Positions 9,980-22,827 of a stretch of 22,827 nucleotides of DNA are shown one piece after another; the first letter of the stretch is position 1, and each line of letters begins with the position of its first letter. The stretch covers positions 1-22,827 of the forward strand of contig DXJO01000031.1 in assembly GCA_019057475.1 (NCBI GenBank), written 5' to 3'. The notes under the pieces were generated by a model. That model saw nothing but the letters and a program-made list of their open reading frames with translations, was not told the DNA's origin and ran no database searches. Both the position numbers and the translations under genes were made by a program. Origin of the DNA: Candidatus Thorarchaeota archaeon (GTDB lineage: Archaea; Asgardarchaeota; Thorarchaeia; Thorarchaeales; Thorarchaeaceae).

Positions 9980-11310
9980 CAATGACTGCAGTTCACCTGG
10001 GAATGGACGATATCGACAGCCCGAGAGGAGGCTGTACGACGCACTTTGCCAGTCTCTTAGTTGAGGAATTGACCGAGTTGGGAGCCAGTTGGCTGGACTA
10101 TCCGAATCTCATTAGACTAAATCCAAACATTCCATACAGAACACGAGGCAACGGTGCGGTCACTCTAAGGTTCGAGCTTGAAGCCTCAGACGTGGACCAA
10201 GTCTTACCAAGATCGAACCTGCTACTCAAAAAGTACCTAAAAGAGGACTACCCAAACACCAACCCCGGTATGGTCATCGCGACAGGAGATGTCCCAGTTG
10301 ATTTGCTCGGTTTCTCCAAGCTCGCTCTCTGGAGAACTGTGCCCGTGGCATTGGCCCGAAGACTGGTGGCCAGATTAGCCCTTCCCTACATTGCAATCGG
10401 AAATAGGAGGGGTCTCATAGGTGCACTGTCAGCCATAGGGAACCCATTGCGCCAGGATCACACCTACGAGTACATCGCATACCGCTCGATTGAACTGACC
10501 TCTAGAGAACGAGGAGTTGATGTGGATTCCGTGTTCAAGATGAACCAAAAATACGGAAACCGCTTGTTTTCCAATATCGATGGCTCAGCGCAGAAAATTT
10601 TGATTGAGCCTCATGGCCCGGATCCAGTCATCTATGGAATCAGAGGGGAAACCCCACTGGACGTGATAAAGGCTGCAGATCTAATCCAGAGTAAGCAGGA
10701 CAAGGAACGTTGGATGGTATTCAGGACAAACCAGGGTACAGGTGCACATCTCGTTCACAGAGTACGCCTTTCGGACATTAGGCCGTACATGGCCGCTGTT
10801 GTGGAGGGAGAAGTTGCAACAAAATCAAAGATAATCGAGGGCGGCCATGTCATCTTCAAGATAACAGATGGGCCCACTAATGCAGAGTGTGCAGTGTACG
10901 AGCCAACAGGTGAGTTCAGAGAGATAGCAACAATGCTCATTGAAGGAGACAAGGTAAGTCTGGACGTAGGAGTTCGGCCCGCATCAAGGATGCACGGCTT
11001 AACATTGAATGTCGAAGGACTTAGAATCCTCCAACTAACAGACGAAGTCATTCTTGTCAATCCGATATGCCCCCATTGTCTGAAAAGAATGAAGAGTGCT
11101 GGTAAGGAAAAGGGCTTCAAATGCATCAAGTGCGGCTTCAAGGACCCTCAAGCGAAGAAAACAGAAATCCCAGTTGAGAGACAATTGAAAGCGGGTAGGT
11201 ATCTGCCACCTCCAAGGGCACAGAGGCATCTGACTCGACCAATGAACAGGATGGATCGAAGAAACAATGGCATACCGAATAATCTAGTCGATGAATGGCA
11301 CGACCCCTAG
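9976..11310 (+). CDS. tiaS: tRNA(Ile2) agmatinylcytidine synthetase
   Basis: GMDDIDSPRGGCTTH, LIRLNPNIPYRTRGNGAV, GRRGLIGAL-like motif, PHGPDPVIYGIRG, FRTNQGT, OB fold (GGHV, YEPT), Zn ribbon CPHC...MKSAG...CIKC and RHLTRP. Confidence 0.95.
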   Translation: MTMTAVHLGMDDIDSPRGGCTTHFASLLVEELTELGASWLDYPNLIRLNPNIPYRTRGNGAVTLRFELEASDVDQVLPRSNLLLKKYLKEDYPNTNPGMVIATGDVPVDLLGFSKLALWRTVPVALARRLVARLALPYIAIGNRRGLIGALSAIGNPLRQDHTYEYIAYRSIELTSRERGVDVDSVFKMNQKYGNRLFSNIDGSAQKILIEPHGPDPVIYGIRGETPLDVIKAADLIQSKQDKERWMVFRTNQGTGAHLVHRVRLSDIRPYMAAVVEGEVATKSKIIEGGHVIFKITDGPTNAECAVYEPTGEFREIATMLIEGDKVSLDVGVRPASRMHGLTLNVEGLRILQLTDEVILVNPICPHCLKRMKSAGKEKGFKCIKCGFKDPQAKKTEIPVERQLKAGRYLPPPRAQRHLTRPMNRMDRRNNGIPNNLVDEWHDP

Positions 11311-18178: not shown

Positions 18179-18401
18179 GATGGGACCTTCTTGTTTGATG
18201 GGCAAAAGACAATCTCCCATTGTAAGTTAGTATTGCCTGATATAGTGCCTTACTTTGAGGTTAGAATTATGCTTTTGGACAGGGCACTCACGTATCTCAA
18301 TCATCAAGCAAGGGATAAGAACTCGTTGTTTTCATCCTACAATGGACTGCCACGATTTTACCCAGTTCACACTTTTGGATTGATATATGAATGAGAGAAT
18401 C

Positions 18402-18910: not shown

Positions 18911-18978
18911 GCTTTTCGATGTAATTAGAAAAACAGATATAGAACTTGTGGATTAACATCAAGCTCGGTGATAGGTCA

Positions 18979-19677
18979 GTGCCATCTCTCGAAGAGGTCA
19001 TGAAGGAATTAGGCAAGCAACTTGACAAGAAACTGCAGGATTTAAAAATCGACTACCTTCTCAGAATTCTCCTAATCTTGGCCTCCAAAATGGACAAGAG
19101 GTCTCTCACTAAGCTAATATCTGATGATGCCTATTTCCCTTTGGCAAGGATTGTGACATTGCTGGAAAAGCAAGACCTAGATGGAAAAGAGATTTTATTC
19201 GAGATTCTGGATGAGCCTGCCGCAGAAATAGACCTACGCAAACCTGTGGATGCCTGGCTCACGCAAGAACATGGAATGCAAAAGACAGCTTACGAAGTAC
19301 CGCTACCTGTCGCTGGTCGAAGTCGTGCAATTGATGTCTGTGGTTACAAGTCCGGCAGATTAGGAGAGGTGAAAGTCATAGCAGTTGAACTCAAAATCGA
19401 CCCCCAACGTGGTTCTATTGACAAAGCCTTCGGTCAAGCACTCGATAACGCCAAGGGTGCTAATGAGTCATACGTAGTTTTCTCACCCTATGTGTATCTC
19501 AAGCAGGCAGAGGCAATCATGAAAAAGAACAAAGACCACAAAGAAGTTGGTGTACTGATAGTAAACAAGAGGGGAGTCACCATTCCTGTTTCGAAACCAT
19601 CAGAATGGAGTTTGAAGGACTACCACGACACAGATGTCCTCAACGCAGTGAAAGAGTGGATGAAACAATCAAAGTGA
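18979..19677 (+). CDS. PD-(D/E)XK superfamily nuclease with helical N-terminal domain
   Basis: E.DL..V.AWL...YEV...RAIDVCG...IAVELK...KAFGQAL...NESYVV. GTG 18979 follows GGTGAT. Confidence 0.75.
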   Translation: MPSLEEVMKELGKQLDKKLQDLKIDYLLRILLILASKMDKRSLTKLISDDAYFPLARIVTLLEKQDLDGKEILFEILDEPAAEIDLRKPVDAWLTQEHGMQKTAYEVPLPVAGRSRAIDVCGYKSGRLGEVKVIAVELKIDPQRGSIDKAFGQALDNAKGANESYVVFSPYVYLKQAEAIMKKNKDHKEVGVLIVNKRGVTIPVSKPSEWSLKDYHDTDVLNAVKEWMKQSK

Positions 19678-19702
19678 CAAAGACCTAGAATGAAGGAAGT
19701 CA

Positions 19703-20140
19703 CTAAAGAGTACAACCACCACCTGCCATCGGGTCTAGAATTGTTTCTCCCTGCTTGGTGAAGTAGTACAGATAATGAAGGGCAATCTGACCAGGAATGT
19801 TCATTTCGTGATGAATACCAAGACGGTCGTCTAAGTCTTGGAAGTTCCAGACGTTGAAGAGATATGGTGGCTGGCCTAGGAAAGACTCTATGCGTTCGTC
19901 GTCTGACTTGCCTTCCTGCAGTATTGCCCACGTCACAGGAATGTCTAGACCATGGAATTGTGCAACATCGGAGATGGACTTACCAGATTCGTAGTCATTG
20001 TCAATTTTATCAAAATTGATATTTTTGACAATTTCAGTGATTGCAGTCCTACCTAATTCTACCTTATCAGCAATCTCCTGCTGAGTCCAATTCGGCCTGT
20101 GCGTGGACTTCTCCAGCGTCGAACTGAAATCTTTGGGCAT
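19703..20140 (-). pseudogene. HTH plus N4/N6 DNA methyltransferase-like fragment, 3' truncated
   Basis: HTH WTQQEIADKVELGRTAITEIV, then NVWNF...IPGQIALHYLYYFTKQGETILDPMAGGG (SAM-binding motif I). A stop follows 3 codons later and there is no DPPY/SPPY catalytic motif. GGAGG precedes the start. Confidence 0.75.
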
Positions 20141-20193
20141 GTTCGTGTCCTCCAGCTACACCTATTTGGTGTTTTTCAGGCATCGAAATCACA

Positions 20194-20288
20194 CAGGATT
20201 CAGGCAAGAGCTGTCTAGGCGGTGGTATCAAGATCGCCCACCACATCGTCGCCGAGTTCACGGCCCGTGGACTCTTGTTTCCTGCCTT
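20194..20288. repeat. Structured intergenic repeat, copy A (95 bp)
   Basis: Arms CAGGATTCAGGCAAGAGCT (20194-212) and CTCTTGTTTCCTGCCTT (20272-288) are mutually complementary with a bulge and enclose two hairpins. Confidence 0.85.
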
Positions 20289-20506
20289 CATTCATCCTTT
20301 GGCTTCTGTTCTTGTATGAAGATTCGTCGGAACGGTCTACCCACAAATCTCAACCTAACATCATCACCACTTTCTGCTCTCTTTAGGATTTCAGTTGCTA
20401 GGGCCAAAGAGTTCTCATTGGTTAGAGAGAATCTCATCGACTCCTTAGTCTCTGTGAAGTCGTAGATTTTTATAGACGGCCACTTCTCACTTCTCTTTTT
20501 TTGCAT
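20288..20506 (-). CDS. Hypothetical protein (72 aa) lying between the two structured repeats
   Basis: Strong GGAGGTG 8 nt before ATG. Globular-looking sequence. Stop overlaps the end of repeat A. Confidence 0.7.
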   Translation of the reverse strand: MQKKRSEKWPSIKIYDFTETKESMRFSLTNENSLALATEILKRAESGDDVRLRFVGRPFRRIFIQEQKPKDE

Positions 20507-20541
20507 GAATTATCCACCTCCGTTAAGTTGTTGGTTGTCAT

Positions 20542-20629
20542 CAGGATTCAAGCAAGAGCTATGACGGGGTGAAAAGAAACCGAAAACCCCATCGCATTGT
20601 CGCCAATGCGACCTCTTGTTTCCTGCCTT
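20542..20629. repeat. Structured intergenic repeat, copy B (88 bp)
   Basis: Arms CAGGATTCAAGCAAGAGCT (20542-560; 18/19 identical to copy A) and CTCTTGTTTCCTGCCTT (20613-629; 17/17). The interior sequence differs from copy A but again forms two hairpins. Confidence 0.85.
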
Positions 20630-20643
20630 GCAATGCGAATGAA

Positions 20644-20808
20644 TCACTCTTGCCTTCCGCGTTCGACAATACACTTGAAGCATAGCCAATATGGTCTCCA
20701 GACATTCATAATGAGAACCAAGGGTCTATCCACACCCGAAGCACCACACTCTTTACACTTGCCCTTTGCTTTATCCAAGAATCCTTTTGCCTTGTCTAAG
20801 AATCCCAT
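20644..20808 (-). CDS. 54-aa C4 zinc-finger microprotein (not in the ORF track)
   Basis: Translated by hand: MGFLDKAKGFLDKAKGKCKECGASGVDRPLVLIMNVWRPYWLCFKCIVERGRQE*. ATG directly follows the upstream TGA and a GGTGA motif. Confidence 0.75.
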   Translation of the reverse strand: MGFLDKAKGFLDKAKGKCKECGASGVDRPLVLIMNVWRPYWLCFKCIVERGRQE

Positions 20809-21063
20809 TCAATCACCGTCCTCATCCTTTGGCTTCGCACCTTCTATCACCAGAGGAATACCGATAATCAGCATCCCCGCTCCGAGAGGGAGTAGCATCA
20901 TAGGAATTGGTGGTTGTAGACTCCCTATCCAGTCCATGAGGTAATTGAAGGGGGCAATTATATTTTGATGTATAGCATACGAAATCTGTCCAATGGACAT
21001 AAAGGCCCCACCAACACTGTGAGTATCACTCCTATGGTCAACTTCAATGGGTCTCTCATTCAA
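20809..21063 (-). CDS. Small membrane protein (true start may be 21000)
   Basis: Hydrophobic MMLLPLGAGMLIIGIPLVI. TTG 21063 follows GGAGG. Stop abuts the next start. Confidence 0.55.
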   Translation of the reverse strand: MNERPIEVDHRSDTHSVGGAFMSIGQISYAIHQNIIAPFNYLMDWIGSLQPPIPMMLLPLGAGMLIIGIPLVIEGAKPKDEDGD

Positions 21064-21110
21064 TCACATCCTCCTGTCTGACTTGTCTGCCTTAAACTCT
21101 TCGACTTCAT

Positions 21111-21515
21111 TCATGGCAACACGTCCCAACGGTCTTCCCAGTCCTTGATATTAGGCACATGGAAGCCTGCCTGTTTGTAGTCCGGTTCGTTCCAAGAGAA
21201 CCATCGCTTGTTGACCTCATCACCACGGGCAATAAAGACGCGGAACCCTCTGCCCTTCTCTGGAAGGATGACAAAGAACCAAAAGGTGTTCTCATCGCTC
21301 GGTGGCTCTCTGACGTACCAGCCATTCTTGTCTTGAGACGATGTCTTAACCTCTCCAACAAAGGGAGCGGCGTCGGCCTTTCTTGCCATGAAGTCATTGG
21401 TCATGACGTTGCCTTTCGTCTCCTGTGTATCATATCCTCGAACTGACAGTTCACTGAGAACATGGTGCAGTCCTGCATATTCGACCTGTCGCGTCGATAG
21501 TTTCTTTTCTGTCAT
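21111..21515 (-). CDS. Small PD-(D/E)XK nuclease-like protein
   Basis: AGLHHVLSELSVRGY...GN...DFMA...GEVKTS...W...FWFFVIL...RWDVL. Start taken at MTEKK after GAAGTGA; 21551 is an alternative. Confidence 0.7.
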   Translation of the reverse strand: MTEKKLSTRQVEYAGLHHVLSELSVRGYDTQETKGNVMTNDFMARKADAAPFVGEVKTSSQDKNGWYVREPPSDENTFWFFVILPEKGRGFRVFIARGDEVNKRWFSWNEPDYKQAGFHVPNIKDWEDRWDVLP

Positions 21516-21846
21516 TGTTTCAATCACTTCCCTAGTCGTGCTTCCTATCAAGAGTATTCAACATGTCAGACAACTTTAGGTGTTCTCTCATATACGATTC
21601 TTGCCACCTGATTCGACCGTGCCCCAATGCATAAAATGGCTGTACTAAATGGTTACTTGGTAGATATTAGCGAACGGTTCCACAGGGGCAAATATCCTAG
21701 CCCTCTTGGTGAATTACCCAACTAGATCCAATCCCCTAGAAAAAGAGTATATGTATATACGAACTCAACCAGCTCTGTGGAAGTTTTGATATATTTATAA
21801 AGATTCAACCAACCCCACCCCTCCAAAACCTTCGCTAGTTCAGGTC

Positions 21847-22011
21847 CTAGTCCTCCTCCTCATCGTCCTCCGCTTCTCTTGATGCTTCATATGCCTCATG
21901 ATCCGGATTCAGCTGGTCAGCACGATTCTCAACAGAGGCGTCATATGCTGGATTATTGGGATTCATCGAATCAGATCTGTCATCGTTCCGCGATCTTCCT
22001 CCTTTTGCCAT
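21847..22011 (-). CDS. 54-aa hydrophilic microprotein with two R(S/A)Dx(M/L)NP repeats and an acidic tail (not in the ORF track)
   Basis: MAKGGRSRNDDRSDSMNPNNPAYDASVENRADQLNPDHEAYEASREAEDDEEED*. AAGGAGGTGA lies just upstream of ATG and TTATAC lies near 22051-56 on the minus strand. Confidence 0.8.
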   Translation of the reverse strand: MAKGGRSRNDDRSDSMNPNNPAYDASVENRADQLNPDHEAYEASREAEDDEEED

Positions 22012-22415: not shown

Positions 22416-22640
22416 ATGCACTCCCTGCCTAGTTCTTCCAGAACAACACAGCTCCTCAAGAAGAAGAAATTCTCTGAGGTCGAGCTCAAGCTGCGAATGG
22501 ATCACAAGAAGAACTCGCAGATGCTAGAGCAGTATTACGCTGTCCTTGACGAAAAAGACCAAGCTGCGGCTGAGCTCAAGTATCTTGGCAGCCGGCTTGG
22601 AATCAACCAGAGACCATATCGCGGTTCACAGATCACCTGA
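22416..22640 (+). pseudogene. C-terminal fragment of a tyrosine recombinase/integrase
   Basis: SRTTQLL...SEVELKLRMDH..NSQMLEQYYAVL resembles the segment after HxxR (HSRATxL...ExELKxxxG(H/W)...SxM...Y) and includes the catalytic Tyr. The HxxR motif and all upstream domains are absent. Confidence 0.6.
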
Positions 22641-22827
22641 AACGGCACCGTGACACAGGCAGATTCGTCACGACCATGTGGACTGACCTGAAGCCGACCT
22701 ACTACGTTGTGACAATCGAGGAACATGGATAAGCAAAGAGAGAGATACGGAAACCCAGGGAGAGTCGACTAGATTGTTCCTCCGATATGTTTGCACGAAG
22801 TGTGATGACGCAACTGAGGCTGAAGAG

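What the first reader, a model, noticed from the sequence alone, without database searches (positions are those of the whole stretch)
20194..20629. Two copies of a structured repeat with conserved arms and variable interior flank a single gene: cassette-like recombination site or new RNA motif
Seen: copies A (20194-20288) and B (20542-20629) share only their ends (18/19 and 17/17 identity). On the coding (minus) strand both read AAGG-CAGGA-AA-CAAGAG...AG-CUCUUG-CYUGAA-UCCUG, a basal stem with an asymmetric internal loop. The interiors are unrelated in sequence but each folds into two hairpins (B: CGCAUUG-GCGA-CAAUGCG and GGGGU..ACCCC; A: CACG-GGC-CGUG and GGCG..GUGGU..ACCAC-CGCC), giving a three-way junction. 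Each copy sits immediately after a stop codon and shortly before the RBS of the next co-oriented small gene. The arm spacing differs by 7 nt between copies, so the conservation is not protein-level. Established: integron attC sites have this layout (gene, then imperfect IR with extrahelical bases and a variable terminal structure), but the RYYYAAC/GTTRRRY cores are absent here. Inference: either a non-canonical attC-like site of an archaeal cassette system (a tyrosine-recombinase remnant lies ~1.8 kb away) or an undescribed cis-acting RNA such as a processing site, attenuator or ribozyme.
Basis: partly seen in the sequence, partly recalled or inferred. Interest (0 to 1): 0.8.

Follow-up and report, generated by a model that had tools for sequence, protein, structure and literature searches.

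The report
Repeated splicing-endonuclease site in island mRNAs
The two repeats are real, and their conserved base folds into the exact shape (two 3-base bulges four base pairs apart) that archaeal tRNA-splicing enzymes cut, so they are most likely small excisable RNA cassettes between genes of a mobile island in an intron-rich Asgard archaeon, a setting where such introns are almost unknown.

Summary
Copies A (20188-20292, minus strand) and B (20534-20633, minus) belong to a small family. I found 4 intact copies in this genome and 3 in unrelated metagenome or MAG contigs, plus several decayed copies. All lie between, and point the same way as, small genes of related mobile islands. I found none in 400 other genomes of the phylum, and there is no Rfam match.

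The interiors are not unrelated. Six copies share a covarying hairpin with a GNRA loop; a seventh has a different interior between identical arms.

It is (A)GG-CRGG-[ANA]-CAAGAG ... CUYUUG-CYUG-[ARN]-CC(U): two 3-nt bulges on opposite strands, 4 bp apart, in canonical polarity. That is a strict bulge-helix-bulge (BHB) motif. It is the only fold all 7 copies share. None of 4000 random windows from this genome shows this geometry.

A second, sequence-unrelated conserved BHB element lies 1.1 kb from copy C. The host has two EndA paralogues, RtcB and many intron-bearing tRNAs.

Best reading (~0.55): EndA/RtcB excise a 65-84-nt structured circular RNA from intergenic mRNA. Cleavage is untested and the arms show no compensatory covariation. 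attC membership is rejected, but one comparison does show a cassette-like gene insertion between copies.

The parts
20188..20292 (-). Copy A, whole element (covariance-model match). The BHB core is 20195-20287.
   Evidence: R1 90.4 bits, E 5.7e-18; pattern match.
20272..20287 (-). Copy A 5' arm. Outer helix AGG is 20287-20285, central helix CAGG 20284-20281, 3-nt bulge AAA 20280-20278, inner helix CAAGAG 20277-20272. The predicted 5' cut is between 20279 and 20278.
   Evidence: The cut rule (after the 2nd bulge nucleotide) is established knowledge. It is consistent with the anticodon-loop intron of the tRNA-Ser in this same window.
20195..20210 (-). Copy A 3' arm. Inner helix CUCUUG is 20210-20205, central helix CCUG 20204-20201, 3-nt bulge AAU 20200-20198, outer helix CCU 20197-20195. 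The predicted 3' cut is between 20199 and 20198. The predicted intron is 20278-20199 (80 nt).
20211..20271 (-). Copy A interior (cargo). It has a hairpin with a UCG-GCGA-CGA tip and a G-rich second hairpin. It carries about 10 nt more than the other copies.
20534..20633 (-). Copy B, whole element. The BHB core is 20543-20628.
   Evidence: R1 95.4 bits, E 3.5e-19.
20613..20628 (-). Copy B 5' arm. AGG is 20628-20626, CAGG 20625-20622, bulge AAA 20621-20619, CAAGAG 20618-20613. The predicted 5' cut is between 20620 and 20619.
20543..20558 (-). Copy B 3' arm. CUCUUG is 20558-20553, CUUG 20552-20549 (one G.U pair), bulge AAU 20548-20546, CCU 20545-20543. The predicted 3' cut is between 20547 and 20546. 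The predicted intron is 20619-20547 (73 nt).
20593..20610 (-). Copy B hairpin P2, CGCAUUG-GCGA-CAAUGCG, with a GNRA tetraloop. It is followed by P3, GGGGU..ACCCC (about 20563-20592).
20288..20506 (-). 72-aa ORF between copies B and A, an ORFan. It is the 'cassette' gene that is absent from the single-copy arrangement in L056.
20644..20808 (-). 54-aa CxxC...CxxC (zinc-ribbon-like) ORF upstream of copy B. A homologue precedes copy F in L056.
19703..20140 (-). ORF downstream of copy A with an HTH plus an N6_N4 DNA-methylase fragment, ending prematurely. Remnants of the same gene follow the element site in C40, L053 and L056.

Best explanation
The element is a self-contained bulge-helix-bulge (BHB) cassette. 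It is transcribed as part of the polycistronic mRNAs of a mobile island in an intron-rich Asgard archaeon. On the sense strand the conserved arms fold into outer helix (A)GG/CC(U), central 4-bp helix CRGG/CYUG and inner helix CAAGAG/CUYUUG. A 3-nt bulge (ANA) sits on the 5' strand on the inner side, and a 3-nt bulge (ARN) sits on the 3' strand on the outer side. This is the structure that the archaeal splicing endonuclease EndA recognises by shape. EndA would cut after the second nucleotide of each bulge. RtcB would then join the mRNA halves, leaving ...GGCAGGAA|UCCUG..., and would circularise the excised 65-84-nt piece. That piece is a three-way junction. In six of seven copies it carries a conserved, covarying hairpin capped by a GNRA tetraloop, so the excised RNA, not the mRNA scar, is probably the functional product. 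Because the copies share identical arms, they also act as homology patches at which small genes are swapped between islands. Shown here: the repeat family, its geometry, its conservation pattern, its orientation and the presence of the enzymes. Inferred: transcription, cleavage, ligation, circularisation and any function of the product.
For: (1) Family: there are 7 intact copies, 4 in this genome and 3 in other assemblies, all co-oriented with the flanking genes. (2) Geometry: RNAalifold and constrained folding give exactly 3-nt bulge / 4 bp / 3-nt bulge with h=2-3 bp (up to 6-8 bp in F and G) and h'=6-8 bp. There are no indels in the arms of any copy, although the interiors vary by 19 nt. (3) This is the unconstrained minimum-energy fold in 4 of 7 copies. 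(4) Base rate: 0 of 4000 random 100-nt windows of this genome have this geometry, or its mirror image, in their minimum-energy fold, against 4 of 7 family members. (5) All three substitutions inside the central and inner helices are transitions that give G.U. Variation otherwise concentrates in bulge positions 2-3. (6) RNA signature: the tetraloop varies only at N (GCGA x3, GUGA x3), and its stem shows double compensatory changes. (7) A second, sequence-unrelated element 1.1 kb upstream of copy C (C12:1236-1337) has the same strict geometry. It was the strongest such motif in the whole genome. It is conserved in three loci with two G-C to G.U changes, and its 3' bulge differs at all three positions. 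(8) Host capacity: there are two PF01974 EndA paralogues, consistent with the broad-specificity (alpha-beta)2 enzyme reported for Asgard archaea (PMC5829648). RtcB is present. ARAGORN calls introns in 24 of 47 tRNAs. A canonical tRNA-Ser intron in this window has the near-identical 5' site CUGG-AA|U. (9) Precedent: a BHB intron in the 5' UTR of Haloferax HVO_1309 is excised as a circle and cut in vitro by EndA (PMC7714728).
Against: There is no experimental or transcript evidence. The arms show no double compensatory change, so covariation statistics are null. Only 7 related copies exist. In the two window copies the nearest-neighbour model gives the BHB fold only 2-4% of the ensemble. Sense and antisense strands fold about equally well. 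EndA recognises shape, not sequence, so it does not explain why the arm sequences are nearly invariant while the interior stems covary and copy E has a different interior. Something sequence-specific may also act on them. BHB-like geometry at this stringency is common by chance when scanning raw sequence. I found 29 hits against about 21 in shuffles per 54 kb, and 17 against 14 for the mirror control genome-wide. Splicing has no consistent coding consequence, and stop codons precede the 5' site in A and B. Sites where the element is missing are not precise intron deletions.
Confidence: 0.55

Rival explanations
1. It is a structured cis-acting RNA that EndA does not cut. The three-way junction with its conserved, sequence-specific basal internal loops would be a binding site for a protein or another RNA. 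It would stabilise the upstream cistron, or control translation of the downstream small gene, in the way REP-like intergenic stem-loops do. The BHB geometry would be coincidental.
For: The arm sequence is nearly invariant, which shape recognition by EndA does not require. The position is constant, after a stop codon and 18-60 nt before the next start. RNA features are present: the GNRA loop and a covarying hairpin. In A, B and E the alternative CAGGA/UCCUG register is thermodynamically preferred.
Against: The alternative register is broken in 4 of 7 copies. The exact 3/4/3 geometry has a base rate below 1 in 4000, and it recurs in an unrelated neighbouring element. A stable strict BHB in a cell full of BHB introns would be expected to be cut, because minimal BHB substrates are cleaved regardless of context (established enzymology; PMC7714728 for an mRNA). 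No known family matches. A K-turn reading fails because the required G at the second non-bulged position is A, U or C.
Confidence: 0.2
2. It is a DNA-level recombination site or hot spot. The conserved arms would be recognised as folded single-stranded DNA (attC-like) or as duplex by a recombinase, or would simply serve as homology patches. Small-gene cassettes would then be inserted and lost between copies.
For: L056 carries one copy (F) with B's left flank and A's right flank. The window has an extra 72-aa gene plus one extra copy, as a single crossover of a circular gene-plus-element unit would produce. Gene order around copies is mosaic: gene X is upstream of C and F but downstream of D and G. 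Solo arms and decayed copies exist. The arms are conserved and the interior is replaceable, as in copy E. Sense and antisense fold equally well.
Against: The attC cores RYYYAAC/GTTRRRY are absent on both strands (sequence). There is no tyrosine recombinase in the window and no other recombinase among the neighbouring ORFs. There are no target-site duplications. A GNRA loop varying only at N, together with G.U-only helix changes, fits RNA rather than duplex DNA. Only one cassette-type event was seen. This reading is compatible with the best explanation rather than exclusive of it, since RNA elements can act as recombination patches.
Confidence: 0.15
3. It is a decaying selfish repeat (a MITE-like or intron-derived relic) with no present function.
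For: Copy number is low and distribution is patchy. The element is absent from 400 genomes of the phylum and from 100 relatives. There are several degraded copies.
Against: The arms are identical in contigs from independent samples whose flanks and interior have diverged. Compensatory changes maintain the interior hairpin. There are no terminal duplications.
Confidence: 0.07

Closest known systems
BHB intron in the 5' UTR of Haloferax volcanii HVO_1309 (Schwarz et al. 2020, PMC7714728)
   Same: Both are BHB motifs in a non-coding part of an mRNA, upstream of a protein gene. In Haloferax the motif is excised as a small circular RNA, is cut by recombinant EndA, and has no effect on the reading frame.
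   Different: The Haloferax case is a single chromosomal locus conserved as an orthologue, with a 46-nt intron. Here a repeated family of at least 7 copies sits between several different small genes of mobile islands, has sequence-conserved arms and carries a structured 65-84-nt cargo. Nothing here is experimentally verified.
cbf5 pre-mRNA BHB intron of Crenarchaeota (Watanabe 2002; Yokobori 2009, PMC2738675)
   Same: Both are protein-gene transcripts with an EndA-type intron.
   Different: The cbf5 intron interrupts a coding sequence and must be removed to restore the frame. Here the element is intergenic. Only in copy C would removal fuse two ORFs in frame, and homologues of the upstream gene end before the element.
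tRNA and rRNA BHB introns and processing stems. This includes tRNA-Trp introns that carry a C/D-box sRNA and circular pre-rRNAs. Transposing tRNA introns of Thermoproteales are recalled from memory.
   Same: The hBHBh' geometry and cut rule are the same. The excised piece can itself be a functional, circular RNA. Related introns can occur at several sites in one genome.
   Different: Here the exon halves of the motif are not part of a tRNA or rRNA. They belong to the repeat itself, so the cassette brings its own complete recognition site.
Integron attC sites
   Same: Both are imperfect inverted repeats with unpaired bases and a variable middle. Both sit at the 3' end of small promoterless genes in fixed orientation. 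One cassette-like gain was seen.
   Different: There are no R''/R' core sequences and no IntI nearby. The features here are RNA-type (GNRA loop, G.U). Two 3-nt bulges 4 bp apart is not the attC layout of R box, unpaired central spacer and L box with single extrahelical bases.
Repeated intergenic regulatory stem-loops of phages and bacteria: PeSL cassettes of T4-type phages and REP elements (recalled from memory, not checked here)
   Same: These are short conserved structured repeats between small genes of hyperplastic regions, and they double as recombination points for module shuffling.
   Different: Those elements are promoter/terminator or RNase-protection elements of bacteria. No promoter or terminator signal is evident here, and the structure is the archaeal endonuclease motif.

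Membership tests
Archaeal BHB (hBHBh') splicing-endonuclease substrate | Two 3-nt bulges on opposite strands | tested here: met
   All 7 copies have ANA on the 5' strand and ARN on the 3' strand, with no length variation.
Archaeal BHB (hBHBh') splicing-endonuclease substrate | Bulges separated by a central helix of exactly 4 bp | tested here: met
   CRGG/CYUG is paired in 28 of 28 cells, and the two changes give G.U.
Archaeal BHB (hBHBh') splicing-endonuclease substrate | Canonical polarity: the 5'-strand bulge next to the intron helix and the 3'-strand bulge next to the exon helix | tested here: met
   The layout matches the 37/38 intron of the tRNA-Ser in this window (CUGG-AA|U). The mirror geometry is found in 0 of 7 copies.
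Archaeal BHB (hBHBh') splicing-endonuclease substrate | Flanking helices h and h' of at least 2 bp | tested here: met
   h is 3 bp in most copies, 2 bp in D and 6-8 bp in F and G. h' is 6-8 bp.
Archaeal BHB (hBHBh') splicing-endonuclease substrate | The motif is the dominant fold of the transcript | tested here: inconclusive
   It is the minimum-energy fold in 4 of 7 copies. Ensemble probability is 0.80-0.86 (C, F, G), 0.34 (D) and 0.02-0.08 (A, B, E).
Archaeal BHB (hBHBh') splicing-endonuclease substrate | The host encodes the endonuclease and the ligase | tested here: met
   There are two PF01974 matches (C42, C54) and RtcB PF01139 (C45).
Archaeal BHB (hBHBh') splicing-endonuclease substrate | Cleavage in both bulges, with exon ligation and a circular intron observed | not testable with these tools
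Integron attC site | Conserved R'' (RYYYAAC) and R' (GTTRRRY) cores at the ends | tested here: not met
   Neither strand of either arm contains them. The only GTT is in GTTTCCT on the antisense strand (sequence).
Integron attC site | Association with an IntI-type tyrosine recombinase and an attI | tested here: not met
   There is no PF00589 match in the window at E<=0.1. The 8 matches in the genome lie on other contigs.
Integron attC site | Gene cassettes gained and lost at the site | tested here: inconclusive
   There is one event consistent with it, the comparison of L056 with the window. Other differences are not bounded at the arms.
MITE / IS end | Terminal inverted repeats flanked by target-site duplications, with many near-identical copies | tested here: not met
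   The flanks show no duplications. There are only 4 copies in the genome, with diverged interiors.
Kink-turn (L7Ae site) | Tandem sheared G.A / A.G pairs next to a 3-nt bulge | tested here: not met
   The position that must be G is A, U or C among the copies.
Any Rfam 15 family | Covariance-model match | tested here: not met
   Nothing matched at the element at E<=10 in window 19000-22000, or at E<=1 in C12 1-6600.

The most novel reading that the evidence does not exclude
The arms are kept identical between copies because they also pair across copies. The 5' arm of an upstream copy (B) with the 3' arm of the next copy (A) forms the same perfect BHB around a whole small gene. EndA and RtcB could then excise entire gene cassettes as circular mRNAs, or skip them from the polycistronic transcript. 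That would be RNA-level alternative splicing and cassette circularisation in an Asgard mobile element, driven by the tRNA-splicing machinery. It would explain the sequence conservation that shape recognition alone does not. The DNA-level cassette gain seen in the L056 comparison could reflect the same units.
Probability: 0.1. Interest if true: 0.9.

Novelty: new variant of a known kind. Interest (0 to 1): 0.62.

Why it matters
The literature I read reports endonuclease-type (BHB) introns outside tRNA and rRNA only twice: in crenarchaeal cbf5 and in one Haloferax 5' UTR (PMC7714728). Two things would be new here. One is a repeated, self-contained BHB cassette that carries a conserved structured RNA. 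The other is its location, together with a second unrelated BHB element, in the intergenic mRNA of Asgard mobile islands. If real, it would show that mobile elements exploit the host tRNA-splicing machinery to make small circular RNAs or to process their transcripts. It would also provide a natural counterpart to engineered BHB circular-RNA expression systems. And it would add a concrete case to the open question of how BHB introns arrive and spread in intron-rich Asgard genomes; a recent census found no general route (bioRxiv 10.64898/2026.10.13.758758). If cleavage does not occur, the element is still an undescribed structured RNA repeat, but of narrow distribution.

Tried and rejected
- **Rfam:** an E-value scan found no family at the element in the window or in C12.
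- **Decoy of a host CRISPR repeat:** a crude array search found no arrays. The element has no similarity to other genome features.
- **Coding intron:** in A and B a stop codon precedes the 5' site. Only in C would the 69-nt excision fuse two ORFs. Homologues of the upstream protein end at ...NLYKHR, before the element. Rejected as a general function.
- **Precise intron-loss alleles:** genomic matches to the predicted spliced junction occur at the chance rate, 6 observed against about 6 expected. Sites lacking the element (C40, G385, L053) are not precise deletions.
- **Strand asymmetry of folding energy:** this was uninformative, -186.9 against -179.4 kcal/mol summed over the copies.
- **Genome-wide enrichment of BHB geometry:** there was none, so geometry alone cannot be used as evidence outside a conserved family.
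- **More copies:**
  - Exact two-arm patterns over viral, metagenome and species-genome collections gave one true hit (E); the rest were chance matches.
  - Pattern and model searches of 400 and 100 related genomes gave none.
  - Searches of phage and plasmid collections gave none.
  - Protein-guided searches of viral contigs gave none.
- **Tool closure:** Nine further metagenome contigs encoding homologues of the neighbouring membrane protein could therefore not be examined.
- **Other readings:** the K-turn, attC and MITE readings failed their defining features (see the membership tests).
Full report
**1. The observation**

Chance expectation is 0.09-0.14. The layout is as described:
- 84-aa and 54-aa ORFs, then copy B (20534-20633).
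- A 72-aa ORF, then copy A (20188-20292).
- An ORF with an HTH and a truncated N6_N4 methylase domain.
Shine-Dalgarno-like sequences precede the genes downstream of both copies.

One statement needs correcting. The interiors are not unrelated. Both contain a hairpin whose tip is UYG-GCGA-CRA, followed by a G-rich hairpin.

**2. The family**

A covariance model built from three copies (R1) finds four copies in the 3.34-Mb genome:
- A and B in the window.
- C at C12:2429-2524.
- D at C40:3848-3946.

It finds none in 100 relatives. A degenerate two-arm pattern finds none in 400 genomes of the phylum.

Exact-pattern scans of the viral, metagenome and species-genome collections, filtered with the model, gave one more copy: E on Ga0209986_10196132.

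I then followed homologues of the small membrane protein next to C and D ('X'). This gave two more:
- F on an ENA contig, L056:2176-2271.
- G on NCBI JAUVZW010000207.1, L055:2317-2408.

Decayed copies and solo arms also exist: C33:~3566-3650, G001:C215:979-1076, L053 ~10270-10320, and the 3' end of gene X in G385 and L055.

All seven intact copies point the same way as the adjacent small genes.

The surrounding DNA looks like mobile islands:
- It consists of ORFans, an Nmad3 nucleotide-modification protein, a methylase and HTH proteins.
- Short repeats are shared between contigs at the island edge.

There is no match in Rfam, phage records or plasmid records.

**3. Anatomy**

Aligned to the model (A4), the arms read, 5' to 3':

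(A)GG - CRGG - ANA - CAAGAG ... CUYUUG - CYUG - ARN - CC(U)

RNAalifold pairs AGG with CCU, CRGG with CYUG and CAAGAG with CUYUUG. That leaves one 3-nt bulge on each strand, separated by exactly 4 bp. The 5'-strand bulge is next to the inner helix and the 3'-strand bulge is next to the outer helix. This is the strict hBHBh' motif as defined in the literature (for example bioRxiv 10.64898/2026.10.13.758758). Its polarity matches the anticodon-loop intron of the tRNA-Ser in this window, whose 5' site is CUGG-AA|U.

Evidence that this register is the relevant one:
- It is the unconstrained minimum-energy fold in C, D, F and G. It lies 1.1-2.0 kcal/mol above the minimum in A, B and E.
On the alignment its outer helix is 85.7% paired, against 98.9% for all BHB arm helices.
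- Ensemble probabilities of the BHB fold are 0.80, 0.84 and 0.86 (C, F, G), 0.34 (D), 0.08 (E), 0.04 (A) and 0.02 (B).
- In F and G the outer helix is lengthened to 6-8 bp by flank sequences that differ from the other copies.

So the BHB fold is the only one common to all copies. For the two window copies it is not the predicted majority state. That is a real weakness.

**4. Is the geometry more than chance?**

Scanning raw sequence for the geometry is not informative:
- At the family's stringency I found 29 hits in 54 kb of island DNA, against 14-28 in shuffles.
- Genome-wide, I found 17 strong motifs against 14 for the mirror-polarity control.

The informative comparison asks how often a sequence's own best fold shows this geometry. 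The answer is 0 of 4000 random 100-nt windows of this genome, for both the true and the mirror polarity, against 4 of 7 family members.

The substitution pattern also fits:
- The arms contain no indel in any copy, while the interiors range over 19 nt.
- The three substitutions inside the central and inner helices are all transitions to G.U.
- The other variable arm positions are bulge positions 2-3 and the outermost pair.

No pair in the arms shows a double compensatory change, so formal covariation support is nil. The interior hairpin P2 does show such changes: C-G to U-A, A-U to G-C and others. Its GNRA loop varies only at N (GCGA three times, GUGA three times). Copy E has identical arms around an unrelated interior.

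**5. A second element**

The strongest strict BHB motif in the whole genome (17 Watson-Crick pairs, no G.U) lies at C12:1236-1337. That is 39 nt upstream of the Nmad3 gene and 1.1 kb upstream of copy C. It reads:

CGAA-GUGG-AAU-GACAAUGAG ... CUCAUUGUC-CCAC-AUG-UUCG

It has no sequence similarity to the first family. Homologues in G385 and on C24 keep the geometry:
- The RNAalifold consensus has the exact 4+4 bp / 3-nt bulge / inner helix layout.
- Two copies show it in their own minimum-energy fold.
- The differences are two G-C to G.U changes, and a 3' bulge that reads AUG, GUA or AUA.

I found this element by searching for the motif, so its discovery is biased. Its conservation pattern is an independent observation.

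**6. Host capacity**

- The genome has two PF01974 endonuclease paralogues. This fits the (alpha-beta)2 enzyme with the specificity-broadening L1 loop reported for Asgard archaea (PMC5829648).
- It has RtcB.
- ARAGORN calls introns in 24 of 47 tRNAs.
- Earlier notes of this scan call the genome Thorarchaeal and list many 30-nt BHB mini-introns in its rRNA and tRNA genes. I did not verify the taxon.

**7. Mechanism proposed**

If the element is transcribed and folded as above, EndA should cut after the second nucleotide of each bulge. This is the established rule, and it agrees. RtcB should then join the exons and circularise the intron. Predicted introns are 80 nt (A, 20278-20199), 73 nt (B, 20619-20547), and 69, 72, 84, 69 and 65 nt (C to G).

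There is no consistent effect on coding:
- Stop codons precede the 5' site in A and B.
- D has no upstream co-oriented gene.
- Only in C would the excision fuse X to the next ORF in frame, and X homologues normally end before the element.

I therefore take the structured circle, not the spliced mRNA, as the likely functional product. Its function is unknown. Every step after 'folds as a BHB' is inference.

**8. What EndA does not explain**

Shape recognition does not require the arm sequences to be invariant. Yet they are far more conserved than the covarying interior stems, including in contigs from independent samples. Something sequence-specific may act as well.

One comparison bears on this:
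- L056 has X, then a homologue of the 54-aa gene, then F, then a methylase remnant.
- F's left flank is homologous to B's over at least 45 nt, and its right flank is homologous to A's.
- Relative to this arrangement, the window contains one extra gene (72 aa) and one extra element copy. A single crossover between element copies would produce this.

It keeps a DNA-level role alive, at least as homology patches.

Membership in the attC family is nevertheless rejected. The core sequences are absent, no tyrosine recombinase is detectable in the window, and the RNA-type features argue against a purely DNA element. A more speculative explanation of the arm identity is pairing between arms of successive copies; it is given as the novel case.

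**9. Comparison with what is known**

In the papers I read, BHB introns outside tRNA and rRNA are reported only for cbf5 mRNA in Crenarchaeota (PMC2738675) and for the 5' UTR of Haloferax HVO_1309. The Haloferax intron is excised as a circle and cut in vitro (PMC7714728). The present element works like the HVO_1309 case but differs in four ways:
- It is a repeated family.
- It is carried by mobile islands.
- It brings its own complete motif, exon halves included.
- It carries a conserved structured cargo.

I found no report of such a thing.

**10. Verdict**

- The repeat is real and is more than a two-copy coincidence.
- The best-supported reading is a BHB endonuclease site (confidence about 0.55).
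- The main rival is a non-cleaved structured RNA (about 0.2).
- A DNA-level recombination role (about 0.15) could coexist with either.
- Novelty: a new variant of a known kind.
- Interest is moderate to high. It is limited by the small family, the lack of covariation in the arms and the absence of transcript data.

Noticed in passing
G000:C12:1236-1337 (+) = L068:1236-1337; homologues at L058:2858-2982 (-) and L073:996-1110 (+): A second, sequence-unrelated element has strict BHB geometry (CGAA-GUGG-AAU-GACAAUGAG...CUCAUUGUC-CCAC-AUG-UUCG, predicted 87-nt intron). It lies 39 nt upstream of an Nmad3-domain gene. It is conserved in three loci, and its 3' bulge differs at all three positions.
   Followed up: partly
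window 18292-18375: Two adjacent repeats of 41-45 bp recur at 85-98% identity on contigs C12 (6533-6573), C33, C10, C40 (4536-4580) and C49, at the edges of related island DNA. They are probably attachment or boundary sequences of the islands.
   Followed up: no
window 22616-22827: The last ~200 bp of the window, which is a whole contig, recur at the ends of six other contigs (C9, C16, C22, C32, C33, C43). This repeat breaks the assembly, so the island's far end is not in the window.
   Followed up: no
L003:1229-1873 (= C12:2163-2807): In copy C the predicted 69-nt excision would join the small membrane protein X in frame to the next 93-aa hydrophobic ORF. Without excision, X reads 8 codons into the element. 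Homologues of X normally stop at ...NLYKHR.
   Followed up: partly
L058:1455-1534 (-) and L055 ~2720-2760: In G385 and in the NCBI contig, the 3' end of gene X encodes ...GDSSPSDLPET using a solo 3' arm of the element (CUUGCCUGAAACCUGAUGA). A relic of the repeat has thus become coding sequence and supplies the stop codon.
   Followed up: partly
window 20291-20305 and 20822-20836 (minus strand): The 72-aa and 84-aa ORFs both carry the 15-nt string GAAGCCAAAGGAUGA (encoding KPKDE) at or near their 3' ends. It is a short shared repeat outside the element.
   Followed up: no
window 18946-20140: The HTH-plus-N6_N4-methylase ORF downstream of copy A stops after 145 aa, in the middle of the methylase domain. 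It abuts a convergent 243-aa ORFan on the plus strand. Remnants of the same gene follow the element site on C40, L053 and L056.
   Followed up: partly
whole genome (G000): ARAGORN calls introns in 24 of 47 detected tRNA genes and misses the two-intron tRNA-Ser in the window. The genome has two EndA paralogues.
   Followed up: partly
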